Positions 15,029 to 49,126 of a stretch of 64,000 bases of DNA are shown piece by piece (within the stretch, counting starts at the first letter, position 1; each line of letters begins with the position of its first letter). The position numbers and the translations under genes were made by a program. Where the stretch lies: assembly GCA_905178155.1 (NCBI GenBank), contig CAJINV010000002.1:9988650-10052649 (forward strand). The letters run 5' to 3'. The notes below the pieces were generated by a model. That model did not search any database. It saw only the letters and a program-made list of their open reading frames with translations, and had not been told where the DNA came from. Origin of the DNA: Amoebophrya sp. A120. Taxonomy: Eukaryota; Protista; Dinoflagellata.

Positions 15029-17492
15029 CTAAATCGACCACAGTTCCGACGCGTGCGCGTGCGGATTGAACGCATAATTAATCGGCCTCGCACCTCCCCC
15101 GCGAGTCCCTCCACACACACCCGTGCCGGAATTATTGCTTACATCCCGCCCTGCGCTCTTCCGATTTCCGCGCGCCGTGAGAATTTTGCAGGCGCCGTTC
15201 CGAAGCGATTCGTCCACCGCGTGCTCCTCCTCCCGGTACACCCACTCCAGGTCCGCCTGCGCCATGGGAATGGCCGCCACCAGGCCTTCGTTGCGGCACA
15301 AAGGGCAGGGGTAGGGGTTGCACAGCGCGCGCACACCCGAAAAATTCTCCCGTCCAAGGAAAAACCGGAGCCGAGACCGGATGTCTTTTTCCAAACAGGA
15401 GATGTGGAACGAGTGCTGACAATGCGGCAACGTGAGGATGTCGTTGGATTTCGTTCTTTCAGTGCTCCCCCTGCTGTCGCAGAGACAGCGGGGCCGGTTG
15501 TAGTTTTCGTTTTCACGATTGATGCCTTGTGCTTCTAGTTCTCCTTCTTCCTCCTCTGCCATGTTCGAGGACGAATCTACTGCATGGGAAAGCACGATCG
15601 CGTCCGGATTCTCGGCATCAACCTTCCAGAGCACCAAACATTCGCTGGTGCAATCGTAGCCGTCGTCCTCCTCGTTTTCCATTACAGAAGTATCACTGCC
15701 CGTACGTGGTCTTGAAGACTGGGTAAAGGGAAAGGATCGCACACTTGCGGGGGAATTCGCCGATGACGCCGGCGACGATGGCGCGGTGGTGCTACTGCTC
15801 GAGGAAGACGTGGACCGAGAGAAAAAGCTTGTACCTGCTGACAAAGCTGCACTACTAGTAGTACTTCTACTTCCCGGAGTCGTAGCTCCGCCGAAAGACA
15901 TGAGCTTTCGCTTCACCGCAGAGGAGCAGCCTGGGAGCGTTTCATAGCAATCGGCGACGTCGTCCTTGTTTTTTCCGTTGTACTTGAACACCAGCGGCTG
16001 CGAAAAGGCGGAGTCGGGGAATCCTCGAGGCAAAGGCTCGCGAAGCAACCTGACTGGAAGTTTCTGCTCGATGTGGTCCTTCGATTTTCCACTTTTCATT
16101 TTCTTGCCTCTTTTCCAAAGTCCGTTCCTGGGCCACATACAGGCAGGTGGAGGAGCGACGTGGTCATCATCATCGATTGGGGATGCTCTACCAGTACTTC
16201 CGCTTGCACCAGCGTCGGCTGATGGTGACCGTGAGTCAGACTCTCTTACAGTTTCTCTTTCGTCGGGAATAGAGACGACTTCCGCCAGGAATTGCTCGAA
16301 CGACGATTCAGTAGCGCGATGAACTGTTACAGCACTGTCAGAAGGAGCGCCTGGAACATTCTCATCAGCAGTTCCCACGATACCCTCCTGTGACGTGCCA
16401 GAATTTAAAGCTGTCCTCGCATTTCCACGTTCCTCCTGCCGCTCTCGATTCCTTCCTCCCGACGAAGCAGCAGCTCTCCCACCAGTCCGATCCGCCGATA
16501 GACACAACTGCAACAGAAAGCGGCCGACGCTTGCAATGTCAGAGTCGGAGCACGACTTTTTGGTCGCGGAGGAGCCTTTCTTCGCAGGGACAACCTTTCC
16601 ATTCTGCGTCAACGGCTCCAGGCAGATGGCGCATTCCAGCGGTTCGTCAGGCTCTGGCTTCCTTGCCTTTCCAGTAGGTGTGGTTGCACTCGCACCTTGT
16701 CTGGATGCGGATTTTTCATTCTGTGTTGTGCGAAAAAATAGCCCGAGGGAAGATGAAGAGGAATCTGAAAGCTCCGCGTCTTGCCCCTCGCGGTCTGCTG
16801 GTACCGAAACGCCTCCGGGAAATTGGTCGAGATCAACTCGTCCATATCCTGTGCAAAAGTATCGTACTCGTATAAATGCAAGTCTTGCATTACAAATCCT
16901 TCTCGTAAGGCAAATCCGCATTACAAATTTTATTTCTCATGCTGAGGGAATTTGTAATGCATTTATACGAGTACGATACTTTTGCAGTTCATAGTCCACC
17001 TGTTTCAACAATTTCTCCGCGCAGTGTTCGGGAGCTAGATGGGGGTATCAAATGTAAAAATGTCTGGGTCTGGAAAGTTGGAACTTGTGATGCTAACTTT
17101 GAACTCTAAAAAAATCTGTATTGCATGACCAGCAAGAGGAGCCACGTTTGTGCTACACGAGGAGGGCATTTGTCATGTGGAAATGGCATCAGGAAGCTTT
17201 CCAAAAATCTGTGATACTGGGTCATGCGTTACAAGCATCATGGGTCATGCCAGACAAGCATGACAAGCCTTCCACTCTTCCAGACCCAGACACTTTTACA
17301 TTTGATAGGGGGAGTGATTGTGCGAGTCGAGGAAAGACGCAGAGACAAGGCAAGAGCGCTACTTCTCAGCAGCAACTCATGCTGTGAAGACAAAAGAAGC
17401 ACGATAATCTGGCATGCGGACGCGATGACATTTTTGTAGCCTTCGCAGTACCGAATTGGAAAACCTGCTGCCCTCGGCCGCCGCTGCGCCAT
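15029..17492 (-). CDS. RING-H2-type zinc-finger protein (putative E3 ligase), 3 exons; start uncertain
   Basis: Frame is continuous (ITPP-SSSRTLRGEIVETGG-RVDLDQF) after removing elements 17046-17307 and 16845-16993, each with one TSD copy. Motifs CAICLEPL and LPHCQHSFHISC...CPLCR. Confidence 0.7.
16845..16993. mobile_element. Family B introner, 149 bp, TSD GTCCA
   Basis: TIR TATCCTGTGCAAAAGTATCGTACTCGTATAAATGCA versus right-end reverse complement TATGAACTGCAAAAGTATCGTACTCGTATAAATGCA. GTCCA at 16840-16844 and 16994-16998. Confidence 0.93.
17046..17307. mobile_element. Family A introner, 262 bp, TSD GGGGG
   Basis: Family A TIRs. GGGGG at 17041-17045 and 17308-17312. Confidence 0.93.
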
Positions 17493-18073
17493 AATTTCCC
17501 AAAAAGTTATAATTTTCGCACCGTACTTACTGTACTCCCGATTCCGCTCGAGATCGTGTCTAAAAGTGGCAAGGTCATATCGTGTGCCGTAATGTATCAA
17601 ACACGGTAAACAACTTCCGAAATCAAAACAACGACGAACGTAGCACCGCCACAACAGCACAGACGAACAAGGCCGCCCAAACAAGAACTTCGTGAATCTA
17701 TGCAGACCGTGTCACCTGGTCGTAAATTGAATTTGAGTTAGTGTGACGCTAGCAATCAATACTGTGAACACTTGAATAAAACATCGCAAAGAGCCCCCCA
17801 CGCTATGCCGTGTCCAGTCGCATTATAATGCGCTTCTTTTACTATATTTGGAAGCAATTTACTACAATACAGGGAGACATTCATGGCTGCTCATCCTACG
17901 ATTTGGACTTGTTACGCAAAATACAAGAACATCCGAGGTTGCGGTACAATCACAATACTAGGTATCTTATTTTTCTGTGAAACAATTTTCAGCTCCGTCT
18001 ATGCAACAAGCTCCACGGTACTGGAGCTTTTCAGTATTTTCGGGATAATAGAGATTTGTTGTTTTGGATACAT

Positions 18074-18342
18074 TATCAAATGCAAATTTGTCTGGGTATG
18101 GAAGATTCTGAGGATTCGACATGCACGGTTTACATGAGCCATGAAGTCTGGTATGAAGGACATAGCAATAGCATGACAGATTCTGTGAGGGTTCTATCAT
18201 GCCTATCCTGCGTGAGAAACTGCCTCTCGATTCGGTCAAAAGTGGACAGCCTCTGCTAATCATGCAACACAGATTTTTACACGATTCAGATTGAGCACGA
18301 CGCGTTGTTTCGTTCCAGACCCAGACACTTTTCCATTCGATA
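18074..18342. mobile_element. Diverged family A element, reverse orientation, own flanks do not match (TACAT / AATAG)
   Basis: Ends TATCAAATGCAAATTTGTCTGGGTATGGAAG and TTCCAGACCCAGACACTTTTCCATTCGATA. Interior resembles the 32366 copy. Confidence 0.85.
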
Positions 18343-20460
18343 AATAGCCTTGGGATTCCACCACCAAGCGGGCATCTTCTGCGGGATTATGCTGCTGCAT
18401 AGCGGCGGCGGAGAGGTGCGGCAGTTATCGCAATAAGGCGGTGTGGTCTACTCCTGCGTGCTCGACTACGCTGCTGGCTTTTTGGTCCCGAAGAAGCTTG
18501 GGCAGGAATTGTTCGTAGAAGCAGGAATTGTTCGTAGGGTCATGGTCTCGTAGAAGCAGGAGGTGACGATATTGCTAGAAGCTGGCGATGAACACGAAGT
18601 AGATCACTCCTCCCGTGCGTCAGAGCCTCCACCTTGATCCTCGGCTGAAGCTTTTGCGTTTGGGCTATATTTTCTTGTGCTGATGAAGCAATCGACTGTG
18701 ATGAGGAGATGTTGTTGAAGCTACTTCTACAAACATCAACAGCCAGCCGAGGAACTTGCTGTTGCCCATGCGCCGGATTGTCGTATGGTCTACGGAACGA
18801 TCCGGGGCGGCGAAGAGTCTTTGCAGGAAGTGTGTCCTAGAAAGTCTTTGCAGGAGGGTGTCCCCCCTTCCCAGGGGGGCGTCCTTCTTAGCCGACCTCA
18901 GAAAGGTAGATGTCGTCAAAAGCTTTTGTATAAGTGCCGGAGTGAAGCTGATTGAACCTAGTTCGAAATCGAGTAAAAAACGAGAGCTCTAACAATCAAG
19001 AATACTTCGAAAACCTAGTAAAAAACGAGAGCTCTAACCATCAAGCACTTAGAAAAGTAAACTCGAGTTCTTAAATCTATCGCAGTCTAGAGCTGTAACC
19101 TATGTGCTTATTTTCTGTTTTACAGATTTGACATTCCAGAGTTTGTCCGTATTGCAGCGCATAAAGAGCACGATTTGAGCCGTTTTTTCGGTGTTTGCGT
19201 TTTGTTTATTTTTGTTCTCCCTCGTAGTCGACAAAAGTTGCGAGGGCTAAGTAACACGGACCACCGAGGGCCAAAGCGATTTTGGAAATCGAAACGATTT
19301 TGGAGGACGACATCAGGGCGATTTTGGTCACGACGTCACGCCAGCGATTTTGGACAACTCAAGAAAATATTACGAACAAGCGCTACACTGGGAAATCGTT
19401 GGCAGAAGGGTAGGCGTTGTCACAGGAGCGAAAGGGTCACAAAAGACTGGAAATCTGGATCCTGCAAATTTTTGTACTCTTTCATCTTTGTTTCGGTTCT
19501 TGTCAAGCTTATCTTGCTTGATTCTGCTCGAGAAGAAAAAAGACCGACCACCTTCAACGAAAAATAGTCTTCACAGATTGAGTTCTTTTCTCACGACACG
19601 GCGCGGTAAAACAGGGACCACCGCCCAAGGCTATGGACCACCGCGATGCTGTTACACGATTACGGAGGTTAACGCTTGGATCTGCTTCGATCAGCCACCG
19701 GCTGCGTTTTTTTGTACTTTTCCAATAAGAACGCACTCGCTGTCGCTCGCGATTGCAGTGGATCTGGCTGGCAGCCGAGCAAGTAGCAGCGCCACCAGTT
19801 CTCGCAGGACCTTTGGCACTGGAGCAGTGCATCGCAATAGATTACTAGCAACGATTCATCTCAATTTGAATTTCAATTTTTACTATCTCAACAGCATTCC
19901 AACAAAGAGTCGCTCCTTCGTTCCTATTAGACTCGAAAAAGTGAGATGTTTTTGCATTACACGCCGAGACTACAAGTATTTTTTGCTTTTCAGAGTTATC
20001 GTATTAAAATTCCTTGCGTGCATAATAGTAATAGCTACTCCTCCAGCTTGTGCAGGGGCAGCGTGGTCGATGAAGAGTCGGTTACAGAAGCGGATCGCAA
20101 CAAATAAAATTCCCATCTTCATAAATTGTTGTTGATGGACCTCCTCCTCCCAGCTGCGGGGCCTCATCATCATCATTATTGTCATCATTCTTGTGGTGCC
20201 TGTCCGATTTAAATGCTTTTCGTAAGTGCTTTTCCCTGTGAAAAACTAGTTCTCTGAAAAGTGAGGAAACTCATCATCTGAAACAATCGAAGGCTTTTAC
20301 GATTCATAACATAAACAACTAATAGTCATCGCATTTGAACCCCGAAAAATAATTCTGCAAACGTAAAGAGTTGTGCTTTATAATTGAGGACAGCTTGGTC
20401 CCAGATCGGTTATGAAATTTTTTGCTGTAAAAAGGTTTAACCAAAAACCTCTCCTCCAGA

Positions 20461-20723
20461 TATCAACTGCAAATATGTCTGGGTCTGGAAGGGTGTGAAC
20501 TTGTGACGCTGCAGCTGGATTCTACAAAAATCTGTATTGCATGAACAGCACAAGAGGTCCAGTTTTTTCCATTGCGAGAGGGCATTTCTCATGCGGTATA
20601 GGCATCAGAAAGCCCTCACAAAATCTGTGATGCTAGGGCATGCATCACAGACATGAGGACTCATGCAAAATGTGCATGACAAACCTTGCACCCTTCGAGA
20701 CCCAGGCACTTTTGCACTTGATA
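20461..20723. mobile_element. Family A element, 263 bp, TSD CCAGA; no host CDS identified
   Basis: Family A TIRs. CCAGA at 20456-20460 and 20724-20728. Confidence 0.92.
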
Positions 20724-20966
20724 CCAGAGGCCAAAATGTCATTTGTCCCGTTCCTCGTCTCTTCGCTTTCCCAATACTAGATCTAAATTTTCATTAACAA
20801 AAATTTTATCCATGAAGAGAAATATGTCAAGTAATATAATATCAAAACTGTAGTGATACAGAATAGAAGTAGCGCCCTGTTTTAGTTTTAGTAATAAATA
20901 TAAATACGGCCGCTGGTTAGCTCGCAGTCACGGACCGTATACCTTCTAACTTTTCTAATCTTCACC

Positions 20967-21493
20967 AATCAAATGTAAAAATGTCTGGGTCTGGAAGAAT
21001 GCAACTTGTGATGCTAACTTTGGACTCTAAAAGTGTCTGTATTGCATGACCAGCATGAGGCGCCCAGTTTGTGCTACGAGGGGAGGGCATTTGTCATGCT
21101 TAACAGACTGCGCGACTAAAGCCCGGGGGGGTGCGGGGTCCGAGGGGTGCACAAAGCACAGCCCGGAACACCCGAACATGCCCCGCGACTGGCACAGGAC
21201 CAGCAACGCAACTATTATCGTCGATCTCAGTTTGTCGATCACAACGTAGCTGCGAAGCCGTCCATTCGCCTGGCGCCCCAAGCCCAACCCCACCTCCGAG
21301 GAAAGGCCACAACCCGAGAGGATCCGCTGCTGAGCTTAGGGCATTTGTCATGCGGGATAGGCATCAGGAAGGCCTCTAGAAATATAATATGCGATGCTCA
21401 TGCTAGATCATGCATTACAGACATCCTGAGTCATGCAAAATATGCATGACAAACCTGGTAACCTTCCAGACCCAGACATTTTTACAGTTGATA
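20967..21493. mobile_element. Family A element carrying a nested insertion; own flanks do not match (TCACC / TACAT)
   Basis: Family A TIRs at both ends. 527 bp long because of insert 21100-21337. Confidence 0.88.
21100..21337. mobile_element. 238-bp insert with 16-bp TSD (SINE-like or truncated retroposon candidate)
   Basis: AGGGCATTTGTCATGC occurs at 21084-21099 and 21338-21353 but only once in other family A copies. No TIRs. Confidence 0.75.
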
Positions 21494-21597
21494 TACATCG
21501 CGCTGGGTCTTTAGTGGAGTGAGAGTATTTCATCTAGAAACCGAATTTTTTGGTTCTTTTTGTTTTTGGTTTGTACATCTACATACATGATCATACA

Positions 21598-24500
21598 TAT
21601 GAAGGTACATTTGGCAAAAATTAACCCCCCCGCCGGATGGCTTTAGCCAGCGCAGTCAATGGCTTTAGCCAAGAACGACCCTAAAAAACCAATGCGCCAA
21701 AGGGCGCCCGCTTGTTGTTCGTCCGAGGCACCGAGAACGAGATCCGACCCCAAATACATCGCCCGATGGGCGCCAGATTGTGGGCGCGGAGTTGTCAAAC
21801 CGACAAAGGCGTGCAGGACGAAGAGAGGAGGCGCGCCGGCATGTCGACCATGAAAACCATCCGCGCCAAACCTCCGCGAGGCTCTTCGGAGGCTTTTACC
21901 GGGAAAGGGCACGGACCACACAGCGCATGTCGCCTGTTGGCGACCCCAATGCCGGCGGGGGGAAAAACTCCAAACAAAATCGGAGCAGCGCGGGCGCAGC
22001 GTGACGCCACACGCACGGCGCAACGCCTGCGGCGGGGGGTCGCGGCGTGTTTCCTTCTTGATGTCACGATCACGCGCCGGCAAGCCTCCGGACAATGAAA
22101 ACGCCGCAAACAGCGGCGCACAGCAGGGGGCCAGCAAGAAAAAAAGGACGCCGCAAGCCCTGTAGCAACTGTCCGCCAAGCAGCGCGCGACCATCGGCCG
22201 ATGCCACCTAAGAGTGAGCATCCCATCCGGAGGCCGCCCGACCTGACGCTCGCGGCAAGAGCCTCGCGGCTTTTTCAAAACAAAAACCCGGGCGCTCTTT
22301 ACCACCCCCCGCGCACCAGCGGCGAAGGGGGGGCTGAGATTGCCGGGGGCGCAGCGGGAATTCCACTGGCCGGCGACGGGGTTGATTGGCCGGGCCTGCT
22401 GGGCACCCATGCTTTTTCCGCGCCCGTCCTTCTATCCCCAGGGCCAGGGCCGGGCGACCCGCACGCCCGGCGGAGAGCGCCAGCCATACTGGATAGAACG
22501 AAACCTGCCAACCGCAAACCGGTTGCGGGCGCGGGCCAATCAATGGGCTATGCCCGGGCGCAGCTCACTGCGGGCAATGCACACAGATGCCCGGCGTCGG
22601 CCCGGCCAACGCGTTCCACCACGGCCACCCCCTTCTCCCCGGGAACCAGGTGGGCCGCCCGAAGCACTTACCCGCCCCGCAAGCGCAGCGCGGGAAATCG
22701 GAACGCACCAAGCGGGCCGACAGAAGCTGGCGCGCGCCCCAATTAAATTATGCCAGCGAGGGAGGCAGGCGGGGCCCCGGCCGGCCCCATGCGTGAGGCT
22801 TTGGCCATGCTTGCAATCCAAATAACGAGATAGAACGAACGCAGGCGGCGCGCCGGCCGATAGACTTCCCAACGAACGAACCGAGGGCCGCGGCGGCCGA
22901 ATCAAGCGCAGGTCGCCCGGGTAATCCCTATACTTGCGCCCTTCCACACCATGCAGCCCCCTGGCCCAAAGCGAGCCTACCCGCCGGCCCGCCGTAGCTA
23001 AGGGTGGTAGAAAGGCGGGCCGGCCTGCTGGCCAGCCAGGCACGGGCGCGCTGCGGGGCGAGACGGGCAACACAGACTCGGGCCCGCCAGCGGATACGGC
23101 ATTCCCCTGAAGCGACCGGCCGCCCGGGAAGGGCCGGCGCCCAAAATTTGCGGTGGGCCACCCATCCAACCTCCTACCCGCCAAGAAACAAAAGGCGCGG
23201 CCGGGCGGGGGTCAGCCCGCCGGCGGGGGACCCTGCATCCCCTTGGGGGGGGGGCAGGCATACCCAGCCAACCCTGGGAAGGAAAGCCGCACGCAGGTCG
23301 GAGGGCCGGCCGGGCCGCACGGGCGGGGCGGCGAGGGCGGCCGCGGGAAAACAATGGGCGTCAATGATGCTTCAGGGCGACAACCCGCCCTCGACTCGCG
23401 AACGGGCCGACGGTAGTCGGGGCCCCCAGCCCCCAGGCAATCGCCCACCCGGACTGGCAACGGCAGCGGGCCTGTTTTCCCCCGGGTATGGGATTGGGCG
23501 GGCGCAAGGGTGGTAGGGAGGGCGGATGGATGGTTGGGCGGATGGAAAAAGGGAAGCCGGCGCGGTGCGCGCGCGCGGGCCGGCGGGCGCGCCCCCTCTG
23601 CGGCGCAAGTAGTTGCATGCCTCCCCGGCGCCCCGCCCCCAAGCCCCCAAAGGCACACACAAAACGCCCGCCGGCTGGCGCCACGCGTCCGCCGGCCGGG
23701 CGCCTAGATGCTTTCACACAGGGGCGGGCGGCCCCCGAAAAAGGCGGAGCGCAAGACGCGAAGCGGGAGAAGGGGCGGTCGCCAAAAACTAAAAAACCCG
23801 CGGCCGGGGCCGCCGCCCGGGAGCCGCAAAACACCCGCAGGGCGCGGCTTGTAGCATCCATAAGGGGTCCGGAGTTCCATAAGGCTTCCGGAAGCCTTCC
23901 GGCGGCTGAAAGCCACCGGCGGCACCGCGGAAGCCGGCGGAACGCCAGCGGAATGGGGACCGGTCCCGGAGGTGTAAAAGTTCAAAGAGCAAAGGCAGAA
24001 AGAGCCGGGGCCGGCATGCGGGCCAGGTCGCCAAAAGTAAGAAACCTGGGCCCGCCCGCGGGGCGCGGGTGGCGAAACATAAACGCGCCATCGGCCCAGT
24101 GCGCGTCCCAGCAGGCCCTGTCCGTCGGTGCCAGGACAAAGGCCGTCCGAAGCAAGCGCCCGCAAAGCAAGCAGGCGAGGACATGCGGGCCCAGCCGTTG
24201 CGCTGCCGCGCAACAGCGCCGGGCGCCGCTTCCATCTGTTCGCTGGCCCCAAGGAAGCAAAGGCTGGGGGGGCACACAGGCAGGCGGCCTCCCCGCGCAA
24301 GTCGCGTAGCTGCCCTGCTGCGGGCGGGCATCGTTCGGTGGCACGGGGCCCGGTCGGAGGGAACAAAAAGGCACCAAGCCCCAAAGGAAGCGCGCAACAT
24401 ACGGGCCGCCGGCCCCCGAAGAACGCGCGTTCTACCCGGTTGGGGCGGCCCTCGGCCCGGTGGCGTGGGTCGAACCTGCAGGCCGGCCCGCCCGGCGCGC

Positions 24501-26120
24501 GCGCGCAGGTGGGCTCCTGCTGCTGAGTCCTCCAAAGTCAAGGGAGAACGCAGGCCGCACAGGGCCTCCGGCGGGCGCCACCCGCGCGCCGGCGTGCGCG
24601 GCACCTGAACAAGCCTGGGGCCACGCATTCACTGCCGGGGGCAGGCGGACGGCCCCGGGCGCCAGGGGGCTTTGCTTGCCAATCCGGGGCCAGCGTGGGT
24701 GCCTGGCTCCCATCGGTTGCCCCCGGCGGTCCGGCGCGGTGCCCTAGCGGTTGCTTGCAAGGCCGAGGCGAGGCCGCCCGGCCCAGCCGCCGGCGGGCTC
24801 GCTGCCAGAAATAAAGGCCGCCGCGCGGAGGCGGCGCCAGTCTTTCAACCAGCGGGCCCGCCACCACCAAGCCCCGGCCGCTCCCTCGCGTGAGTCAATG
24901 TGGCTGCGGTCGCCGGGTCGGCAAAAAAAAACCGGGCTGGGCGAACAAGGGACGAACGCGCGGGGGCGAAGGCAATTGCAATCGGCGTCCTCCCATGCAC
25001 ACAGGCCTGGCCAGCAGCAGCCGAAGCGCGCGACGCAGAACCAGCCCACATAAAATATCCATCCATCGAGCAGGGTAGGCGGCGCCATGCACGCAACAAT
25101 GCAAACAAAGCGGCGCTCGGGTGGCGCGCAACACCAACGGTGGGGCGGGATGGAAGGTAAAAAAGCAAAGCAAAAGGCGGTGGCGGGCCCCGTCGCTGTC
25201 TTCCATGGGGCAGCTTGCTACGCCCGGGCGCCGACGGCGAGCGGGCGTCCCCACCAGGGCAGCAACCGCAATCCGCCCAGACCGACAAAATAATTTGGGC
25301 GGCCGCTGGCGGGCGCCGCCCCCCCTCCCAGCAAGCGGAGCGCGGACCCAGCAAAAAGAAACTGCGACCACAAAATAAAACAGGCGCCCAAGGAGCAAGG
25401 GGGATGCAGGCGCGCCACCTTCATCAGCGGCAGCGGCAGCGGGCGCGCCGCGCGCGCGGGCACAAAGCAAGGAAAGGCCCGGCTGGCCCATTCATTGCGG
25501 GGGAGGCCGGCGAGTCCCCTCGGCGCCGCGCCCGCTTTCTTGCATGCCGGGCGTTACGTTTTCCTGCCGGGCGGCCAGCCGCCTTCCGCCTTGGAACAAG
25601 GCCAGCGGGCTGCACCGGGCCAGCGCCCAAAGCAAAATCGGTGCCCCAGGAAGCAGGAACACACAATGCGCGCATGCTCTTCCCGCGGACTCTCCTAACC
25701 AAGAGTGGGAGCGCGCAGTCCGGCCGTCCCGATCGAACGATGCCCAGGCCGGCGGCCCAAGAAATCCGGCGCCACTTTCGCACGCCCCCTCCCCCCCAAG
25801 AGGGCGCCCCCCGCCCTCCACCGCCTCTCTCCAACGCCACAAGAAACACAAGAGAGCCTCGGGTGGGTTGCCAGAAATCGAGCAACAGGCGGTGGCTTCT
25901 GCTATCACACCTACAGACATGGTCCCTCCACAAGACCTCCAGGCGCGCCCGCGAGTAACTTCACTATGGTAAAGAGCTCTGGCTAAATTTCATCGAGTTC
26001 AATGCTTCAAAGGCCGAAATCGATCAAATTTAGCCAGCACTTTTGTGGCTAAAGCCAGCGCGCGCGCTGGCTAAAGCCATCAGCCGGGGGGGTTAATTTT
26101 TGGCACTATGTACCTCCTTA
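21598..26120. mobile_element. 4523-bp TIR element with 8-bp TSD ATCATACA (hAT-like, apparently non-autonomous)
   Basis: About 55-bp imperfect TIR: TATGAAGGTACATTTGGCAAAAATTAACCCCCCCGCCGGATGGCTTTAGCCAGCGC versus right-end reverse complement TAAGGAGGTACATAGTGCCAAAAATTAACCCCCCCGGCTGATGGCTTTAGCCAGCGC. TSD at 21590-21597 and 26121-26128. Subterminal GGCTTTAGCC repeats. Confidence 0.88.
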
Positions 26121-27505
26121 ATCATACACGACAACAATTATTTACGCAGGATTATCTTAGAGTAGTAGCTCGCCGAACTCCGAAACTGCTGCTCTAGGCC
26201 TTGTAACGGAAAGTGCGGCCCAGCGGCGACGCTAACGCTAGCCGATCACACAAGTCGTGTAGTGTAGAAATAAGTGCTCGCCGTGATATCTTCTTTTCTC
26301 AGAGTGCTACAACGAGTCGATCAGTTTCTGGCAATTGAAGCACTTTTGAGCGGCAACTGATGCTTGATGTCCCAGGACCTGTGAGTAAAAAAAACTGACC
26401 AATTATGGTTTTTTAATTCATGCTGTTCCTTTTCATGCCTTTTGGAAAATAGACACATACTTATTCTCAATCTGAATGCAACATCGTTTACACAAAAACA
26501 GCGATACCAGTTCTGCTCCCTCTTGTTCACTTGTAACAAATCTTAGAAGCCCTCCTCGTCCTCCGATTCGTCAGCTTCATCTTCCCAATCCGCCGGCCCG
26601 AGACCCCAGTTTCTTTCCCATATGCCACAGAAAGAAGATCCACGACTGACATTCACGCTCGACTTTTTTTAAGACTTAGGAAGACGGTCGCGCTGACCAC
26701 GCCGATGGAGATGAGCAAAAAAAGTTGTAAGAATACTGCATTTTTGACCGTCCTTCCTGACGATCCTTGTTTTCATCCGGATGCATAACCCTAAAGTCGA
26801 GTGTGCCAGTCAAGAATCAGGATCTTCTTTTTTGCATATTCCAAATGTTGAGCCGCATCGACGTCTCTTTGCTATGCGAACGAAATTTTTTCAAGCCGAA
26901 CATCAGCGCAATAGCACAAGCTGCATCACAAGGAGGATATGGCTTGCTCGTAGATTCATCATTGTAATAGCTCTGTCTGACGGCGATTCGACAATTGGAA
27001 ATGCGACTTTTCAATCGACAAAACCTTCTTTAGAGTGACAATCACTCCAACGTAGTGAGTGCGGTTGAAGTCAGACTTAAGCCTCACTCACTACGTTGCC
27101 AAACTGCAGTTGCCATGAGAAATGACCAGTTTCGCATTGACTTGGTATCTCCGGCTCGAAATTTCCTTAGGATACTTCACGAAGGTTCCGTACTCCAGAA
27201 TTTTCACCGCGCCATCGGTAATGCCGTTTATCAAGCGGTTTGCTGGTCTCATCTCGTTTTCCGCCGCCGGCCGTGCGGCCGCGAGGATTTCGTGGTCCAA
27301 GATCAAGAGATTCGCGACGAGCTTGCTGTCTGCGTGCGGTAATTGCAGGTTGCTTTCCTCTGCGCGGTGGTCTTCGGATGCACCTGCAGAGTCGTCATTG
27401 GTTGTGGACAGAAAAACTGGGCTCCTTTCACTAAGGCCGGGCAACCAAATTTTTTCTTCTTGCCCACTTTTTTACAGTACGTAGTCAGGAGATTGATTTC
27501 AAGAA

Positions 27506-30028
27506 TTACATCGGTGGCTGGTCAGTGAAAAAAACCTCCCACAAACGTTTCATAATACCGGCGCTGCCCAGGTTGTTCTCGATGTCGCGCACTGCCTTCT
27601 CCAATGCTTGCAGTTCGAGTTCCTTGCGTCGCCTCCACCATCTGCTCAACAGGTAGCCAGCGATCAAACAGGCGGTCACGGCCACGATCAGAAACAACAG
27701 CATCCGATGACCCTCTTCGAAGCGGTGATCGAAGCGGAGGAAGACCAGAAAGGACGTGCAGAAGTTCCTGACTTGATTGCAAAAGTATTCGCCAATCGCG
27801 CTTAGAAACTGGTAGACATCAGACAAATACACCGTGAAGATATCGAAACAAGTAGTGGACTGCGACGGGGGATGTCCTGGAGTTGCGACGTTTTCTTCGA
27901 GTATTTGTGCCACTTTTCCTCCAGGGACCGATGAAAACAGCTCCTCGTGCTGGTTTCCCCGAAGTCCCGAGGAAGTTGTGGATTGCGGTCGGACTGCCGC
28001 CCTGGTTTCTCCTGGCGTTTTGGCCATCGAAAACGACGGTCCAACAGCTCCTGCGCTTGTTTGAAACTGAATGTCAATTGCTGAAGGATTTCCGGTTGAT
28101 GTAGTCCCTCTTGCGTTCGACACATTTCCCGTTGGATCACTTGAAAGTTTCTTCTTGGTCATTTCCGTGGTCCGCTCTTCCCGCATCATGAGGTTCGAAC
28201 TCGGATCTTCCTGCACAGGAACGCCATGGTCGTCGATTTCATCATGCTCTCCCTTGGTCGTCGAGGAACCTCCGACGACTTCAGCAGGATCCAACTGCGG
28301 GACCTTCTCTACCGCACCTTCCAGAAGTCTACTCGCCGATGTTGAAGAATCGGAGGACTGCGCCGAGGCGGGAGACGGTTCTGGCACAGCGGAACTAGGC
28401 GTTGGTGGGAAAGCCAGCGTTGTTACGGCGTCGTGACCGGGGTGCTGCGTCATTTTTGTCGATTCTTGCTGCTGTCCCCGGAGGACGACGCCAACTTCAA
28501 TCGCACTGGAGGAGCCGTCGATTTCCGCTGATAGGTGGCTTGAAGTTTGCGGCAGCACGGTAGGTGAAGTCGGGGAACCAACAGGCATCGTATTGGTGGT
28601 AGCTTTTTCACTGTGACCAGCGCCTCCAGCATCGTCAACTACACTTGCCCCATCATTGGTACGTTCTGAATCCTTATCGTTCGCCGAAGTGCCCTTGGTT
28701 GCGTCATCGCGAACCGTCTCGTCTACGACGTTCTCGGCGTGGAACGGCTCCGCGGCGCTTCGCATTCCGTCGTAAAAAGTTTGCTTCGGCTCGTGTAGCG
28801 CCGCACCTTTTTCGATCAACGAGGACTGCTGGGTACCGGTAGTTTTTAAGGGATCGCTGATGGATAAGTCTCCTCTGAAGGCAAGGACTGCTTTGTTTTT
28901 CAGATCCTCTAGCTGGACGGGGTTGCGAACAGTTTCCCAGTCTGTTATGTAACGACCGGCTACAGTAGCAAGGTCTCCCGCGGAGTCTGTGAACGTGTAG
29001 CCCCAGCGAGCACCGAGTTTCTTGAATAAATCGTTGAACATTGCTGCAATTCTCGGGGGTAATGACGTTGACAATTTTTCGTTCGTTTTTTTCCTGAAGC
29101 CTCCGTTTCCCCCCCACTTCGTCCGCACAGCTGTAACAAGGTTAACAATCGCCTCTGCCTTGCCAGTGATGCTGAGCTTCTGGAACCAGGACATTTCCCT
29201 CGGAACATCGATTGTTGTTTTGGCGGGGCTGTTCTGGCAAGAGTCACCCGCAAGAATTAGAGTATCCTTGTAAATCTTCTGCGAGATGACTTTGATTTCG
29301 CCGGACGAAAGAACCCCGTCATTTGCTTCAATAAAAGATGAAGAGGCGATCCGACTGCTCGCCGAACTACTAGGGTATCCGCCAGTTCCACTGCTTGCAG
29401 TTTCTCCTGGTTCCAGCTCCCGGACGATGTTGACAAGGTCTGCGGATTTTCTTGTTCCCCGTTTGATCGAGGAAGACGAAACTGCTGATGCAGGAGCTGC
29501 GCTTCCTGTCGTGCTTACCCGCGAATCCTTTTCGCCCGCACCAGCAGACGGTGACGAGACAGCAGCGTCTGCTTTCTTCGCGGCAAACTTCAGAGAGAAC
29601 GATGCTGCTTCCGGAGTCTCAAGGGAAGAAGATGGGTTTGTAGTGTCCGACGGTTTCGAGCTCGCATAGGACACAAGAATATCACCCTTTCTATTTCGTG
29701 GTCCTCCTGTACGACTACTCTGGCTCGTTTCTTGCTGCGATCCCGAGCTGCTGGTCGATGCTGATGGCGAGGACTTGGACATGGTGTAGCCGACCGGGTG
29801 CGAAGCGAAGGAACTTCCGCTACTTTCTGCAACTGCTGCACTACTCCCGGTTGTCAGAGATTTCCTCGTTGGGATGGAATCCTGCGCAGGAGTGCTTTCT
29901 ATTTTTGCATCGTCTGTGGAGCTACCAACAGCAAGTAGACTCGACTCGCCGTCATGCTGGCTGCCGCTTTTTGCTGGCAACGACGGCAATTGACTTACGC
30001 CTGCTGCCACGTCCTGTTGGCTCACCAT
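27506..30028 (-). CDS. Hypothetical Ser/Thr-rich protein with C-terminal TM helix
   Basis: 842-aa ORF. Hydrophobic MLLFLIVAVTACLIAGYLL followed by SRWWRRRK. May have upstream exons. Confidence 0.65.
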   Translation of the reverse strand: MVSQQDVAAGVSQLPSLPAKSGSQHDGESSLLAVGSSTDDAKIESTPAQDSIPTRKSLTTGSSAAVAESSGSSFASHPVGYTMSKSSPSASTSSSGSQQETSQSSRTGGPRNRKGDILVSYASSKPSDTTNPSSSLETPEAASFSLKFAAKKADAAVSSPSAGAGEKDSRVSTTGSAAPASAVSSSSIKRGTRKSADLVNIVRELEPGETASSGTGGYPSSSASSRIASSSFIEANDGVLSSGEIKVISQKIYKDTLILAGDSCQNSPAKTTIDVPREMSWFQKLSITGKAEAIVNLVTAVRTKWGGNGGFRKKTNEKLSTSLPPRIAAMFNDLFKKLGARWGYTFTDSAGDLATVAGRYITDWETVRNPVQLEDLKNKAVLAFRGDLSISDPLKTTGTQQSSLIEKGAALHEPKQTFYDGMRSAAEPFHAENVVDETVRDDATKGTSANDKDSERTNDGASVVDDAGGAGHSEKATTNTMPVGSPTSPTVLPQTSSHLSAEIDGSSSAIEVGVVLRGQQQESTKMTQHPGHDAVTTLAFPPTPSSAVPEPSPASAQSSDSSTSASRLLEGAVEKVPQLDPAEVVGGSSTTKGEHDEIDDHGVPVQEDPSSNLMMREERTTEMTKKKLSSDPTGNVSNARGTTSTGNPSAIDIQFQTSAGAVGPSFSMAKTPGETRAAVRPQSTTSSGLRGNQHEELFSSVPGGKVAQILEENVATPGHPPSQSTTCFDIFTVYLSDVYQFLSAIGEYFCNQVRNFCTSFLVFLRFDHRFEEGHRMLLFLIVAVTACLIAGYLLSRWWRRRKELELQALEKAVRDIENNLGSAGIMKRLWEVFFTDQPPM

Positions 30029-30669
30029 GTTCACAACGAAGTTGGAGGCCGGTGAGGTGATGTGAGTGAACAGACACTATCGCTGAGTCCCACCCAGGCT
30101 GGTACCGATCAGGTAGCTACTTGGACATCAGGCTGGCATCACTTCTTTGTGGTTGTGCCGCAACGCTTCGTCAAGGAGCATTACACGCGCGCACTTGCAA
30201 CTAAGAAAACATCGATGCTCCAATCAATCACCTTGGCTATTTCCGGATACGATCATGAAATTGGAAGATGAACAAGTAGCAATGTCGGCATTGGTAGAGA
30301 TAGGTTGACGTCGCCAAGATGAGAACATACAAGAACTTACAATCCTCTCAAATCACTCCGCGATGAAAACTTAAACGCTCTCACTCGATACCGTTGTACG
30401 GTAACTTTTGCTACGAAATCTACGTCCATCTCGCTTCCAACTTTCACAAATCTCGTCTCGATTTACCGCATCAAGACCCAAAAAGATCAAGCAACACGAG
30501 AAATCAATACAAAGCATCTTTCCGGTACAATAATGGCCTCAATTTTCGGACGTGCGCTGCTCGCCTGCGCCTGCATTTACTGCAATCATTCTCATCACAT
30601 CGATGAAATTTGCGTGACTGCGAACTCGGTCGTTCTCGTTGCAGTGTGAATCTTATGCTGACATTTGCA

Positions 30670-32829
30670 CTAATCCCCTCGCGGATTATCACAACTGTCG
30701 ACACTACCCGCATTCCAATTCTTCTCCCTGTCCATCTCCAGCTCCTGCCGCTTTTTGCGCAACTGCTCCAGTTTCTCGCGGTGTCGCTTCAATTTCTCCT
30801 GTAAGGTTTCGGCTGCGGACAGTGTGGGGGAAGCAACTTTTTGCGAATGGTGCAGTGTGTCTGCAACAACTTCTCCACACATATCACGATCTTCAGTTCT
30901 GCCAATGATTTTCGTCATCTTGTCCGTCTCTCCGGACCGAAAAGTATCTTCGACGTCCGCGTGCCTCTCAGTCGTCCCAAGTCCTCCACTGCGAAAACTG
31001 TTCGCCGCGAGCGCACTGATTATCGCACCGTCTGCAGCGGGAGTGTTACTGTCATGCTCATCTCCAAGAGGATTTGATGCATTTGTTCCTTCCTCGCACG
31101 ACATTCCTTTTTCCGCCATAGTTCGTGCGGTGCTGGAGGTCGACGCTACTTCTCGCTCAACACTGGCACCACTGCTAGAACTGGCAGACACACCTTCCCC
31201 AATGGCAGGTTTCGATGGCGCTTTATTTGTTTTCAATCGATTCCCGAAGAGTCGCTGCGCCACGTCCGCGTCGTCGAGTGTCCCTGAGCTACTTCGCGAC
31301 GACGCAGAACCGCTCAGGTCCTTTGACGAATCATCTGTACTCTCATTTTTCTCCCCCGCTGCCCGATTTGATGCCAGGATCATGTCGCTCATCTGCTGAA
31401 TGACCAACTTCTGCTGCCTTTTTCGGCGCTCCCGCGCAATGCTGTGGTACGGGTGCAATCCGTCCAGCTCGTCATCGAGCAGTAAATCGACGTCTTTCAC
31501 TTCCTTCGTACTCGCGAGCAACGTATCCCGTGGCGGAACTGTGAGTCAAGGCACTTAAACTTGCAAACTTACTTATTTTCATAGCACACTGCTGCGACTT
31601 TGATGCATGACAAACGAGCAATTCAAATTCTGTCGTGAGAAATAACGATTTCTTGAACTACAAAGCGTGCAACCCCCGTCTCCGACTGCCGCGGCGACTG
31701 GATAGAAACACTTCTTCACTTTTGCTCGGAAACTGCAAGATTTCATCGAGTCTCGCCTTGACTCAAGAACGATTCTCCGACGATACAACTGCAGCCGCTG
31801 CTTCTCGAGTTCGGTGCCGCGCACGACCCGGGACTTACTGGATGCCCTGCTTCTCGCGGCTGATTTCCGCCCATACTCTTCCTCCCCCTGCTCCTCGGTG
31901 CCCGTGGCGTTCCGCCGGATGTTTGCCAACTCCTTCCGGATGTGCCGCAGGTGCGTCACCTGGAACTCGCACTTTTTCTCCCGCAGAACGTCCTTCGCCT
32001 TCGTGAACAGCGGCTGCAACCGCTCGTGTCCCACCATCATCGACATCAGCAGCTTCTGCTGCCGCTCCTGCGCGAACCGGCGCTGCCGAAACTTCTTTTC
32101 CGTGGCGCGAAACGCCTCCTGCTTGGTCATCTTCCGACCGGTGGAGCGTAAAGCTGCGCCTGCGTGGTTGTAGCTCCGCCCCGTGGATGATGAACTACTG
32201 TTCGCCCCGCCATTCATCAGCCGCAACTGGTGTGAAACAAATTGCATCACCGGGTGGTCACTGCGGTACACGTCGTTGCCCTGCTGCCAGTCGTTCCCGT
32301 CGGTGAAGCAGTCGACGAACCGGAGGTCCGGGTACTTCTGCAGCAAGTCGCGGACCAGGATACGGTATCAAATGTAAAAATGTCTGGGTCTGGAAGAGTG
32401 CGCGATTTGTCATGCTGCTTTTCCATGACCCATGAGGTCTGGAATGCAGGACCTAGCATGACAGATTCTGCGAGACCTTTCTAATGCCTATCCTGCATGA
32501 GAAACTCCCTCCCGACTTGGTCAAAACTGGACGACTTTTGGTAATCACGCAACACAGATTTTCGCATGCTGCAGATTTAGCATGACAAGTTGCAATCTTC
32601 CAGACCCAGACATTTTTACATTTGATATCCGGTACGGATTCGCGATCTTCTTGTCCTGCAGCTGCAGGTTCGTCAGCTCTAACGGCGGCACCCGCTGGCA
32701 GTACAGCAGCCAGTCCGGCCGCTCGCGGTAGCTTTGCTGCTCCAGCAAATTCTCCACCCGCTGCACCACGTCGTACCGTATGCCACGGTAGAAATTCGAC
32801 CCGTTCGGGTGGATGGCGCCTTTGGTCAT
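30670..32829 (-). CDS. Putative mitochondrial ribosomal protein mS23 (MRP-S23/Rsm25-like) with long C-terminal extension
   Basis: Exons join as KIANPY-RILVRDLLQKYPDLRF after removing element 32366-32627 plus 5 bp. RPDWLLYCQRVPP resembles the mS23 P-x-W...PP motif. A second join to ORF 30670..31521 is in frame. The family assignment is tentative. Confidence 0.55.
31540..31766. mobile_element. Candidate degenerate introner with short inverted repeat
   Basis: TGAGTCAAGGC (31542-31552) pairs with GCCTTGACTCA (31755-31765). GAAC direct repeat at 31536-31539 and 31767-31770. Removing 231 nt gives YRRRI-VPPRDTLLAS in frame. A GT-AG intron 31539-31838 is also in frame. Confidence 0.5.
32366..32627. 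mobile_element. Family A introner, reverse orientation, 262 bp, TSD TACGG/TCCGG
   Basis: Near-perfect 31-bp TIR. Flanks at 32361-32365 and 32628-32632. Confidence 0.94.
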
Positions 32830-33740
32830 CTTTGAGGTTGTGGACTTTTTTCTTACTCTCGCGCCCCTCCTTCGTAGAAGTCGGTGACTGTACTCTGTTT
32901 ATTGCGGAAGGTACAGTTTCAGATGTATCCACAAGCTGATCTGGTGCAAGATCAAAAACCGAGTCTTAAGTTTTTGTTTTTTACCGCTGATCGCGATGAG
33001 AACGAATATTCCGGGAGGTGGTCAACCGAGGATGACCTGCAAAGGGAGGACAAGCATACGAACCGGACAATGAAGGGCTGCCGACGAAAATCGTCCTGGG
33101 AGTGTGACCGAGGAAGGAAAGAATGGCCCTGCTCGTGCACGACTCGGAACAGAGCAATCTCCCGTCTTCTACAAAAGTTTCATCGTCCAGTTTTCCTCAT
33201 CTAGCAACAGAAACCTAGAATAGTCTCAAACGTTTTCAATATCCAAGTCTTCAACGTTGCCATCCAACCAGTGTACATCAAGCTAAGGCGTAAACATCAA
33301 ACAAACACATCGCGCACCTGAAACTGTGACTACCAGAAACAAGTCCAAGATGAGTCCGATGTATTCTCCTAATAACACGTTACCTGCAACTCCCTTCCGC
33401 CACAATTGCGATTCCACATCAAGCTGCATCAAGTGAAAAAGTGATTTGCTAAATGAGGTTTCAATTTTGTGAGAAACCAACAGCACTGCGAACGCGCTTC
33501 CTGCAAATAGTACGTAGAAGAAAAGTGGGTGTCCTTTTCCAATTTTTTCCGAATGTGAGTGATGTTTTCTACAGTATTTTTATCGGTCAAACGGTAAAAG
33601 TTAAAAATAAAATCCAACTTTGTTGAGTAAAGTGATCCTAAGTAATGTATCAGAACGTCGAATGGGAACAAATCTTTGTTTCTTTCAACTTGGCTTTTTC
33701 CTCCTTTTCGCACGCACGGTGGTCACCGTGCGATTTTCAT

Positions 33741-45983: not shown

Positions 45984-46831
45984 GCTGGGCAGTACTGAAA
46001 AGAAAAAGATGCTCAGAAGTGAGGTGTTGATGATTGAATTTGAAATCGTAGATGCAGAATAGAGCTACAGTTTGTTTTCTACGCCAGTCCTCCACATCAG
46101 ACGTTCGATCACGAGCAAACAACTCGCTGGGGCGGTTTCGATTAAACTCGCAATGCACACAGAACCGGGACCGCTCATGTTGGCACAACATGATCACGTG
46201 GCACTCCAAGTATAGCCTCTTTATCCAGCTAATGAGCGCACGTGAATAGATCACCGCTTTTCTTCGCGATTTCGCGCTCTCGCGGAAACATCGGTAAGAT
46301 CCCAAATTCCACATCCTAGCGCAACGAGCCCTGCATGGATCAGCTCTCCGCAAATTTTTCATTATGAGAGCAACAGTGCGAAGATCATTCGCATCTTGTT
46401 TGACAGCAGGGATCCGGGAACCCAGATCACGAGAAGATCAAACTTTTTCCAGTACAAATCATCACGAACGCCTCACTCTATGACCGCGCGACGGCTAGAC
46501 CGCGCTTGCTTCATTGCACACGAAGTGTCACCTCATCAGAACTTGAAGAAACCGAGAACGGCATGCAGTGAGAAGCCATCGTCGCACTCTGTTTGCAAAA
46601 CTAGATCCGACCTCGGGTTTCTCAACAGAAGCTGCAATTGCAATACGCTTTATGAACACGTGCCGAAATAGAAACAAAGGCCCAGAAACCTACACCTTCG
46701 CCACATGCGAAAGTTAACTTTCTTTGTTCCACTTACTGTTTAGAGTAGTAGTCACACGAGTAGATCACAGCAGCACGTTCTTTTCGGTCGAAGCCGATCT
46801 TTTTTCATCTTGTCATGCTGGAGCCCCAAAA

Positions 46832-48111
46832 TTACGGGATCATGAACTGCGCGTCCTTGTTGGTCAGGGAGCGGTACACAGCCTGGAAGACGTGCAGCTT
46901 CTCCTCGACGTTCTCTTTGTCCTTGCGATCGAGGGTGACCTGTGTTTGAAGTGCGATTTTGAGTGAAAGACGTTCCTCTGCGCACAATGCAGAATATCAT
47001 GACACATTTGCACCTCGCGCCGCACAGTCAAGGTGTACGAAAACATGAAAACATAAATCTAGAGTAAATCCCGCGCTGGAGGAAACAAAATCAAAATGGT
47101 GTGACATCACGAAGAGAAGAAACTGTAGATACCTTCAGCAGCTTGCTGCCGTCAGTGGCCATGCGGGTGCGCTTTCCGGTGATCTCGGACGGGTACACGA
47201 CGTCCTCCAGAATGGACTCGTGCACAGCGGTCAGAGTACGAGTGCGCGGGCGGACCTGATGCGATGTGATTCAGTTTGTGTTATTTGCGTATATTGAGAA
47301 GTTGAAATGCAAATGTAACACTCACCAGAAATAAACATCAAAGCGCTGTCGCAAATACCGATTTTATGCGAATAAAAAAACTTTATCAGATGGGGGAGCT
47401 TATGAAGCAGTCTGCAGAGTCGCATCCGCAGCGGCATGAGCTTTAGAAATAAAGTCCAAACCTCCATTGACAAAACTCAGACTCGACCAATTCTCAATTT
47501 TAGACTCCGATCATCATGGTTCTTGCACAAAACGCAACATCGCAACTACATGCTGCAGGCGATTGATAAACATTTCCCCTAGTTCGACTCTTCAAAAGAT
47601 CTTCAGAGTAGTTTCTCCACCATCTTAAAACACAACAAGTACCTGGATTCCGCGTCTGCGGAAGTTCTTGTCCATGATGGTACGGTTGGCGACGCAGATG
47701 ATGTGCTTCTTCTGGAACTTCTTTTCCAGTTCGCGGATCAACTTGGGGAGGATCTTCTTGGCCTCCTGGTGGACGGTGTACGGCACGAACACGATAATCG
47801 CGTTCTTGTTGGTCTTGCCACCGCTGCACTCGATCTCCTTAGCGCCCGCGAAACGGAAGTCCTTCAGGTCCGCACGGAGGTCGTTGCCCTGTAGTGTCGA
47901 GTGGGTTGGGGGAAATTAGATTTTTGCTTTCAGCGAAGTGAAATTTAGATTTTTAGAATTTTGCTGACAAACATTTTGTCATGCATCAAAGAGCCGAATG
48001 AAACAACAAAAATCATACCGGAGCAGCCTCAATATCCATGATGGCCTTGGCAACCTCCTCCTCGAGGTCGTTCGGGCTGACGCCCTTGTCCTTCACAATC
48101 TTGGAAGACAT
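46832..48111 (-). CDS. RPS7: 40S ribosomal protein S7 (eS7); exons 48111-48019, 47888-47643, 47255-47133, 46939-46832
   Basis: [14 protein letters not shown] and [28 protein letters not shown]. Three canonical GT-AG introns. Confidence 0.96.
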
Positions 48112-49126
48112 GGTGTGCTGTGTACGATCTACTCTTACTACAGTAAGTGTCCTATAGCACCGTTTCCCTGTGGAAAAATTTGGCGGAGTGTCAAAATTTA
48201 GATTCATAGTCTATTTACGAAATCCTTTAAATGTATCGGTAGTGCCGGCGGATGACGAAAAAAACTCTTCGTGCGATTCTCAGATTTCAAGTTCGTATTG
48301 GATCCCGCAGTGCATGACTTTTATTTCCTCAGATCTTTGCATCCTAAAATTTTGATCGATGTGCTTTGAAAGTTCTTGATCTTCGTTTGTGACTCGTGGC
48401 ACTAGTCTGCGATCCAAGGTGTCTTTGTGTCCGGGATCTTTAGAAATTTGCGGAACTGCTTGCATGTGTGAAAATGGAACGTATAGATCGCACTTTTAGG
48501 CTTTCTTCTATGGCAGATCCAGAGCAAGCGAGCTCTTGTACGACGTTGAACCATTTGCTCTTCACAGATCTGCGCTATCGATGTTTGTGAGCGATCCCGG
48601 GAAATTCCTGTAACTGCCTGTTGCACTGCTGCAGGAGAGATCTGTATACTGAGACTCTTGCAGAACCACATAATATGACTCAGAACTTCCAAGCAATACC
48701 GAGGATACAGCACGACTGTGATCATAGTTGGAAGAAGGCGCAGGACATGCCGTTGCATTGCGCTCTGAACCTCGCCGGTGAGCCTCAGCTGATTAGATCT
48801 TTAGATTCCGCAGAAGACAGTGAGCAAGGAAGTACACGACACAAACAAATCTGACTGCTCCGCACCGAAAAACAATGCAGCGCTTGCACTGCTACATAGC
48901 AGGCACGCCGCATTTTGGGATACAGCTTTACACATTGCGCCCCCAGTCAGCCTGAGCGCAGCAGGATTTACTGTGGAGACCTTTACACGGGGCGTCCAGA
49001 TGCAAGAATGCCATCTCTGTGATACGCGCCCGCACCTTTAAGTTTCGTAGACGCTGCTGTTCCCCGTCCCTCTCGAAAGGTTGACAGCGCATCTGACTCC
49101 AGTAGCCCTGCTAGACCTCTTGTGCA

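What the first reader, a model, noticed from the sequence alone, without database searches (positions are those of the whole stretch)
18069..21498. Candidate 3.4-kb composite transposon formed by two introner ends
The two family A copies lacking their own TSD are 18074-18342 (TACAT / AATAG) and 20967-21493 (TCACC / TACAT). Their outer flanks are the same 5-mer, TACAT (18069-18073, 21494-21498). This is expected if the whole 3420 bp moved as one unit on the outermost TIRs, carrying about 2.6 kb of cargo that includes a third copy (20461). An inversion between the copies would instead give reverse-complement inner flanks, which are not seen. Introners could thus mobilise host DNA. A chance 5-mer match cannot be excluded.
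Basis: partly seen in the sequence, partly recalled or inferred. Interest (0 to 1): 0.72.

Follow-up and report, generated by a model that had tools for sequence, protein, structure and literature searches.

The report
Intron pair that likely jumped together
Two copies of a mobile intron 3.4 kb apart, in what is likely a parasitic dinoflagellate genome, lack their own insertion scars but share one on their outer sides, so they likely once jumped as one unit carrying apparently non-coding host DNA, while each is still spliced out of RNA as a separate intron.

Summary
Observation confirmed. Copies 18074-18342 (TACAT/AATAG) and 20967-21493 (TCACC/TACAT) are the only 2 of 9 full family copies in the window without a 5-bp duplication, and TACAT brackets both. 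In a related assembly only 3 of 147 clean-ended copies match at 2/5 or worse. A chance TACAT costs about 0.0013, so one event using the two outer ends is favoured (about 0.6). The copies are inverted to each other, like Tn5/Tn10. Not shown: an empty allele, a donor, or a second copy of the unit. The cargo appears single-copy, holds no recognisable gene, and is transcribed across both borders: its right half is the 3' UTR of the upstream gene. RNA contigs splice each copy singly in one register (1 nt + element + 4 nt), so splicing does not need an intact duplication. Coincidence stays open (about 0.27): old copies do lose duplications, and one chance outer match occurred among 137 pairs. Composite and macrotransposons are known; I found none reported for introners.

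The parts
18069..18073 (.). Left copy of the shared 5-mer TACAT (candidate target duplication of the whole unit)
18074..18342 (-). Family A introner copy, 269 bp, inverted relative to 20461 and 20967; no duplication of its own (2/5); spliced out singly, 18070-18343 removed
18343..18347 (.). Inner flank AATAG (inferred remnant of this copy's duplication at the donor site)
   Evidence: donor role inferred
18348..20961 (-). Cargo, about 2.6 kb: no match elsewhere in the window, single-copy depth, no Pfam, Rfam or protein homologue found; left part lies in a transcript of about 17843-19474, right part is the 3' UTR of the upstream gene
20461..20723 (+). Third family A copy inside the cargo, perfect CCAGA duplication, spliced out singly
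20962..20966 (.). Inner flank TCACC, followed by a terminal inverted repeat whose first base is A instead of T
20967..21493 (+). Family A introner copy, 527 bp, no duplication of its own (1/5); spliced out singly, 20962-21493 removed (may slide by 1)
21100..21337 (-). 238-bp repeated insert nested in the 20967 copy, flanked by a perfect 16-bp duplication (21084-21099 / 21338-21353); likely a 5'-truncated retroposon
   Evidence: class inferred from recalled knowledge
21494..21498 (.). Right copy of TACAT
18047..18051 (.). Second AATAG, 22 nt left of the unit; possible donor remnant of a very short hop, or chance
19849..30238 (-). Spliced mRNA of the upstream gene (open frame 30076-26546, 942 codons) whose 3' UTR crosses the right border into the cargo
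17843..19474 (.). Second transcript crossing the left border with the 18074 copy removed; no convincing open frame; minus strand inferred from the splice register

Best explanation
The 3420-bp stretch was likely inserted at a TACAT site in one cut-and-paste step, in which a transposase supplied in trans would have used the outer ends of two neighbouring, inverted introner copies and carried the 2.6 kb between them. Shown: the shared outer 5-mer, the missing inner duplications, the inverted arrangement, near-consensus outer ends, and separate splicing of each copy. Inferred: that AATAG and TCACC are leftovers of the donor site; that the changed first base at the inner end of 20967 favoured use of the other copy's end; that the enzyme is encoded elsewhere. 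The jump distance is unknown. A very short hop (an AATAG lies 22 nt left of the unit) would explain why no donor copy is seen and why transcripts still cross both borders. Because each end is removed as an intron in a register set by the inverted repeats (1 nt + element + 4 nt on the minus strand), the cargo ends up in mature RNA.
For: Only 2 of 9 window copies lack a duplication, and these two share the outer 5-mer. Related loci: 152 of 163 copies match at 4/5 or better; of 147 clean-ended copies 3 match at 2/5 or worse. Age does not explain it: among clean-ended copies under 85% identical to their nearest sampled relative, 24 of 26 keep 4/5 or better, and window copies 8223, 17046 and 53461, at 84.7-87.2%, keep 5/5; 20967 is 91.7% to its nearest relative over its left 132 bases with 2 of 30 mismatches between its ends. 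Other duplications nearby are intact (20461 5/5, 8/8 at 21598-26120, 16/16 inside 20967). TACAT by chance 0.0013. Both outer ends start TATCA; the inner end of 20967 has lost the first T, seen at 4 of 304 ends of intact copies. Flank composition leans the same way but weakly (likelihood ratios 0.6-2.3 in 6 settings). My rough product for the chance route is 3e-7 to 3e-6 per neighbouring pair, under 0.1 cases in a genome with some 15,000 copies (extrapolated from window density and the 105 million letters of contigs).
Against: No empty allele: the left-flank 26-mer was not in metagenome contigs, none of the 135 related loci is orthologous, and no joint skipping the whole unit is among the rows shown (15 rows each; 677 and 31 not shown). 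No donor copy: cargo depth equals single-copy depth (41.1 against 41.6-43.4 in X1; 23.5 against 22.4-23.2 in X2), though contigs show presence, not absence. No second such unit among 137 family pairs or 509 wider pairs. Transcripts cross both borders, as expected if the cargo is native. Old copies do lose duplications: 26873-27174 is spliced yet matches 2/5, with the same pattern of changes as 18074; 34688 (1/5) and a candidate at 38811 (2/5) also lack one. The base-rate sample was seeded with an exact inverted-repeat match and so favours young copies. A chance outer match was seen once (L039). No transposase was found in the unit.
Confidence: 0.6

Rival explanations
1. Two independent insertions in native untranslated DNA. 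The 18074 copy had TATAG on both sides and drifted by three changes; the 20967 copy had TACAT on both sides and lost its left copy and first base by an adjacent deletion or repair. The outer match is chance.
For: Spliced RNA reads continuously flank to cargo on both sides. Cargo appears single-copy. 26873-27174 shows the same 2+1 pattern of decay. Five mismatches in a row at the left end of 20967 look like a breakpoint. 18074 is the most diverged window copy (82.6% to nearest). Displaced duplications occur: L047 (12 nt), L039 (8-bp repeat). One chance outer match in 137 pairs.
Against: Needs two events that are each 1-5% rare in copies with well-kept ends, plus a 0.0013 match, in neighbouring copies. 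The other window elements that lack a duplication have 7-10 of 24 mismatches between their ends, against 5 and 2 of 30 here.
Confidence: 0.27
2. Homology-driven capture: a single copy at TACAT was excised or broken, and repair copied or recombined in an ectopic stretch running from one family copy to another, using the shared 30-50 bp ends. Same scar, no joint transposition.
For: Ends are near-identical across thousands of copies. The halves of 20967 have different best matches in the window (left 85% and 83% to 8223 and 17046; right 83% and 80% to 63114 and 20461). Template-directed gap repair at P-element sites is recalled, not tested.
Against: Copying leaves the donor, and no second cargo copy is seen at 85%. 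Both halves of 20967 have the same best match, L057, among related loci, so it need not be a chimera. Circle integration would give direct, not inverted, copies.
Confidence: 0.11
3. Assembly artefact: a repeat was mis-joined, creating false flanks.
For: The family is very abundant, and no listed contig spans the whole stretch.
Against: DNA contigs cross three of the four junctions with 0 differences; RNA contigs join 18069 to 18344 in four runs and 20961 to 21494 in three.
Confidence: 0.02

Closest known systems
Amoebophrya A120-type introner elements (Farhat et al. 2021, PMC7789003; passages and section 11 read)
   Same: Ends start TAT, then seven variable bases and AAA; short direct repeats at the borders; repeated, non-canonically spliced, no internal transposase.
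   Different: The two end copies lack their own direct repeat yet splice in the same register. The passages read describe single introns, not paired movement.
Maize Ac/Ds macrotransposons (PMC3239180 and PMC9910405, passages read; Wang et al. 2022 not held, title only)
   Same: A unit running from the external ends of two separate elements, including the segment between them, with one target duplication outside.
   Different: Those use an external 5' and an external 3' end and an 8-bp duplication, and were watched moving. Here both outer ends are the same end of inverted, non-autonomous copies, the duplication is 5 bp, the ends are introns, and movement is inferred.
Bacterial composite transposons (Tn5 type) and MITE-flanked cassettes (review PMC10969869, passages read)
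   Same: Two related elements bracket a cargo; MITE-flanked stretches can be mobilised without an enzyme of their own. The inverted arrangement of Tn5/Tn10 ends is recalled.
   Different: No transposase in either flank, no selectable gene in the cargo, copies only about 70% alike, one known occurrence.
TIR DNA-transposon introners of Amoebophrya sp. A120 (Gozashti et al. 2025, PMC12130899; passages and 2 of 118 rows of supplement 8 seen)
   Same: Short TIR elements; one listed family is about 256-261 bp with 30-59 bp inverted repeats, superfamily unknown.
   Different: 'cargo' and 'composite' do not occur in the main text. I did not match this family to a listed one; supplements 13 and 14 were not searched.

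Membership tests
Amoebophrya A120-type introner | Inverted-repeat ends TAT + 7 nt + AAA | tested here: met
   Met at both ends of 18074 and 20461 and at the outer end of 20967; the inner end of 20967 starts AAT.
Amoebophrya A120-type introner | Repeated family | tested here: met
   9 full copies in the window, 163 in related loci.
Amoebophrya A120-type introner | Removed from RNA as an intron | tested here: met
   Joints 18069/18344, 20455/20724, 20961/21494 in contigs of runs guessed to be RNA, which also drop GT-AG introns.
Amoebophrya A120-type introner | Own 3-5 nt direct repeat at the borders | tested here: not met
   2/5 for 18074 and 1/5 for 20967; met for 20461. This absence is the finding.
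Composite transposon / macrotransposon | Two same-family elements bracket a segment | tested here: met
Composite transposon / macrotransposon | One target duplication of family length on the outermost ends only | tested here: met
   TACAT, 5 bp, the length seen in 137 of 163 related copies.
Composite transposon / macrotransposon | Empty target allele or observed movement | not testable with these tools
   No genome held, no orthologous locus retrieved; run X9 matched only repeats.
Composite transposon / macrotransposon | Donor site or second copy of the unit | tested here: inconclusive
   Single-copy depth; AATAG-A-TCACC at 46245 is expected 0.12 times by chance, 11 of 100 shuffles.
Tn5-type composite transposon | Transposase encoded by a flanking element | tested here: not met
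   Flanks are 269 and 527 bp; 0 Pfam families in the 14 frames from inside the unit among 30 scanned.
Ac/Ds macrotransposon | External ends are one 5' and one 3' end | tested here: not met
   Copies are inverted, so both outer ends are the same end; the family's two ends are nearly symmetric.

The most novel reading that the evidence does not exclude
Pairs of introners act as self-erasing composite transposons: they move host UTR and promoter segments around a gene-dense genome, and because both ends are spliced out, the moved DNA is fused seamlessly into new mRNAs. This would recur genome-wide wherever duplication-less neighbours share an outer 5-mer.
Probability: 0.25. Interest if true: 0.7.

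Novelty: new variant of a known kind. Interest (0 to 1): 0.46.

Why it matters
Farhat et al. doubted general transposase-driven mobilisation of Amoebophrya introners because they found no transposase in A120. One duplication shared by the ends of two different copies is the scar expected from an enzyme that pairs DNA ends and cuts and pastes, and is hard to get from an RNA or reverse-splicing route. It would also make introners agents of rearrangement, not only of intron gain. Independently of that, the RNA joints show that these introns splice in a fixed register without an intact direct repeat, which bears on how they are recognised. The case rests on one locus with a geneless cargo, which limits its weight.

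Tried and rejected
Whole-genome BLAST for a donor: no genome held; related records not searchable whole. Viral contigs: 0 matches to the inverted repeat. Left-flank 26-mer in metagenome contigs: 0. Simple inversion between the inverted copies, cointegrate or circle insertion, and reversed-end events: rejected, because they predict equal or reverse-complement inner flanks, which are absent. Whole unit as one large intron: not among the joints shown. A coding frame crossing a border, which would have shown the cargo native: none convincing; the upstream gene stops at 26546, and a window-trained coding model gives only weak scores at 18348-18900. Homologues of the interrupted frame 18344-18988: none at E 0.01 in two searches; the protein atlas did not answer. 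Rfam over 17300-26700: 0. Donor scar at 46245: chance level, no coding-frame support. Damaged inner end of 18074 (TATCG): dropped, this start occurs at 4 of 304 ends of intact copies. Local TACAT enrichment: a cluster at 21574-21610 lies 80 nt from the border and partly belongs to the next element; not enough to explain the match. A 4/5 match to TACAT 22 nt left of 20967: noticed after the fact, not used. Small extra depth in five cargo bins at 85% identity (45.6-62.8 against 41.1) also occurs in flanks (46.2, 52.9), so it is not taken as a donor. No listed holder was on record as RNA. Earlier scan findings: four look-ups, nothing bearing on this.

Full report
Setting. The window holds mostly minus-strand genes interrupted by 145-530 bp elements with ends of the form TAT + 7 nt + AAA and 5-bp flanking repeats. 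This is the motif given for introners of Amoebophrya A120 (PMC7789003, section 11), so I treat the organism as Amoebophrya-like; this is an inference from the motif. No whole genome is held.

Observation. A scan for the 30-bp end finds 10 left and 9 right ends, giving 9 full copies. Five have perfect 5-bp duplications, two have 4/5, and 18074-18342 (TACAT/AATAG, 2/5) and 20967-21493 (TCACC/TACAT, 1/5) have none. TACAT lies at 18069-18073 and 21494-21498. The two copies are inverted relative to each other and about 70% alike. The 20967 copy begins with A instead of T and carries a 238-bp insert flanked by a perfect 16-bp duplication. Masked of family copies, the cargo has no match elsewhere in the window.

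Assembly. DNA contigs with no differences cover 17283-18201, 18263-20488 and 20661-20994 in X1, with matching pieces in X2. Contigs from runs guessed to be RNA join 18069 to 18344 in X3, X4, X5 and X6, and 20961 to 21494 in X4, X5 and X6. These four runs are two samples of one study. They also drop GT-AG introns at 26377-26505 and 27382-27556, so I read them as RNA. The structure is real.

Base rate. Of 163 distinct copies, 137 match 5/5, 15 match 4/5, 3 match 3/5 and 8 match 2/5 or worse. Several of the last are boundary errors: among 147 copies with TAT...ATA ends, 3 match 2/5 or worse, one of which becomes 5/5 with a 1-base shift. Loss does not rise much with divergence from the nearest sampled copy (24 of 26 keep 4/5 or better below 85%) or with mismatch between the ends (15 of 15 at 6 or more mismatches). 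The sample was seeded by an exact match and favours young copies. In the window, older elements of other families do lose the duplication: 26873 (2/5, spliced), 34688 (1/5) and a candidate at 38811 (2/5), with 7-10 of 24 mismatches between their ends. So drift can account for 18074 but hardly for 20967, whose ends differ at 2 of 30 positions. TACAT has probability 0.0013 in local composition. Of 137 cross-copy pairs within 8 kb, two share the outer 5-mer: this one, and L039, where both copies have their own GGCGG. A wider scan of 509 pairs gave this locus and one other outer match, L057, where both copies again have their own duplications. Multiplying 1.4-5% per copy twice by 0.0013 gives 3e-7 to 3e-6 per neighbouring pair, or under 0.1 expected cases in a genome of roughly 15,000 copies. 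That figure is my extrapolation and assumes the two losses are independent.

RNA. One minus-strand contig runs from 30238 to 19849. It removes four introns, a 4.5-kb element, the 20967 copy and the 20461 copy. Its open frame ends at 26546, so the right half of the cargo is 3' UTR. A second contig covers about 17843-19474 with the 18074 copy removed. No convincing frame crosses either border, so read-through does not tell native from inserted cargo. The joints at five elements (18074, 20461, 20967, 26621, 26873) share exactly one register: four bases left and one base right of the element on the plus strand, that is 1 nt + element + 4 nt on the minus strand. Three of the five have no intact duplication, so splicing follows the inverted repeats and not the direct repeat. 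The unit was not seen spliced as a whole among the rows shown.

Cargo. No Pfam family in 14 frames from inside the unit, no Rfam match, no protein homologue of the interrupted frame at 18344-18988. Depth equals single-copy depth in X1 and X2, so no close donor copy is visible; contigs cannot prove absence. The predicted donor scar AATAG-A-TCACC occurs at 46245, but 11 of 100 shuffles give one. A second AATAG lies 22 nt left of the unit; by my estimate a given 5-mer turns up that close 5-9% of the time.

Mechanism. The best reading (0.6) is one transposition using the two outer ends. Shown are the scar pattern, the orientation and the splicing. Inferred are the enzyme in trans, the donor origin of AATAG and TCACC, and a role for the changed first base of the inner end (4 of 304 ends of intact copies lack the T). 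Rivals are coincidence after two independent losses (0.27), repair-driven capture through shared ends (0.11) and misassembly (0.02). Flank composition favours outer-flank continuity only weakly (ratios 0.6-2.3).

Comparison. It works like a maize macrotransposon, defined as running from the external ends of two separate elements (PMC3239180, passages; PMC9910405, passages), and like bacterial composite or MITE-flanked units (PMC10969869, passages). It fails strict membership of either: no transposase in the flanks, same-type outer ends, movement not observed. Paper searches (listings only unless noted) and word finds in PMC12130899 and PMC11282704 showed no composite unit made of introners. 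Subscription papers such as Roy et al. 2023 and Wang et al. 2022 were not seen, and supplements of PMC7789003 and files 13-14 of PMC12130899 were not read; they may bear on family identity. The labels hAT-like and retroposon for neighbouring elements, the inverted ends of Tn5/Tn10 and P-element gap repair are recalled.

Verdict. A real and statistically unusual scar, more likely than not a composite move of two introners, unproven, single, with a geneless cargo. New variant of a known kind; interest 0.46.

Noticed in passing
window 21598-26120: 4523-bp element with about 70-bp inverted repeats and a perfect 8-bp duplication ATCATACA (hAT-like, label recalled). GC 68% with only 11.6% T on the plus strand, no Pfam hit in 9 frames, a near-identical second copy suggested by DNA contigs. 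It is spliced whole out of a 3' UTR at two different junctions, 21585-26127 in X4 and 21599-26120 in X5, while X6 reads into it. The strong base skew is unexplained.
   Followed up: partly
window 21100-21337: 238-bp insert with a perfect 16-bp duplication inside an introner; repeated in the genome (X1 depth 2409 against 41) and 3 differences in 224 nt from an RNA contig that runs on for 381 nt. Likely a young 5'-truncated retroposon.
   Followed up: partly
window 18074, 20461, 20967, 26621, 26873: Five TAT...ATA elements of several families share one splice register (1 nt + element + 4 nt on the minus strand) with donor pairs TT, GT, AT, AT, GT and acceptors GT, TG, TG, GG, AA; the direct repeat is not required.
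   Followed up: yes
window 46245-46255: AATAG-A-TCACC, the scar predicted for a donor site, 28 kb from the unit; at chance level (0.12 expected); no reads were laid there.
   Followed up: partly
L039 4329-4608; L047 1281-1531: Copies whose duplication is longer (8 bp, ACTCGAAA) or displaced by 12 nt of filler, suggesting imprecise insertion or repair in this superfamily.
   Followed up: no
window 60461-61490: Two adjoining tandem arrays with 13-bp and 16-bp units sharing GCGAxGCACT, just upstream of a long minus-strand frame.
   Followed up: no
window 32453-32965: Frame resembling mitochondrial ribosomal protein S23 (recalled resemblance; Pfam gave only a sub-threshold unrelated hit), interrupted by copy 32366.
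   Followed up: no
window 46750-48130: Multi-exon gene resembling ribosomal protein S7e (recalled resemblance) with apparently ordinary introns.
   Followed up: no
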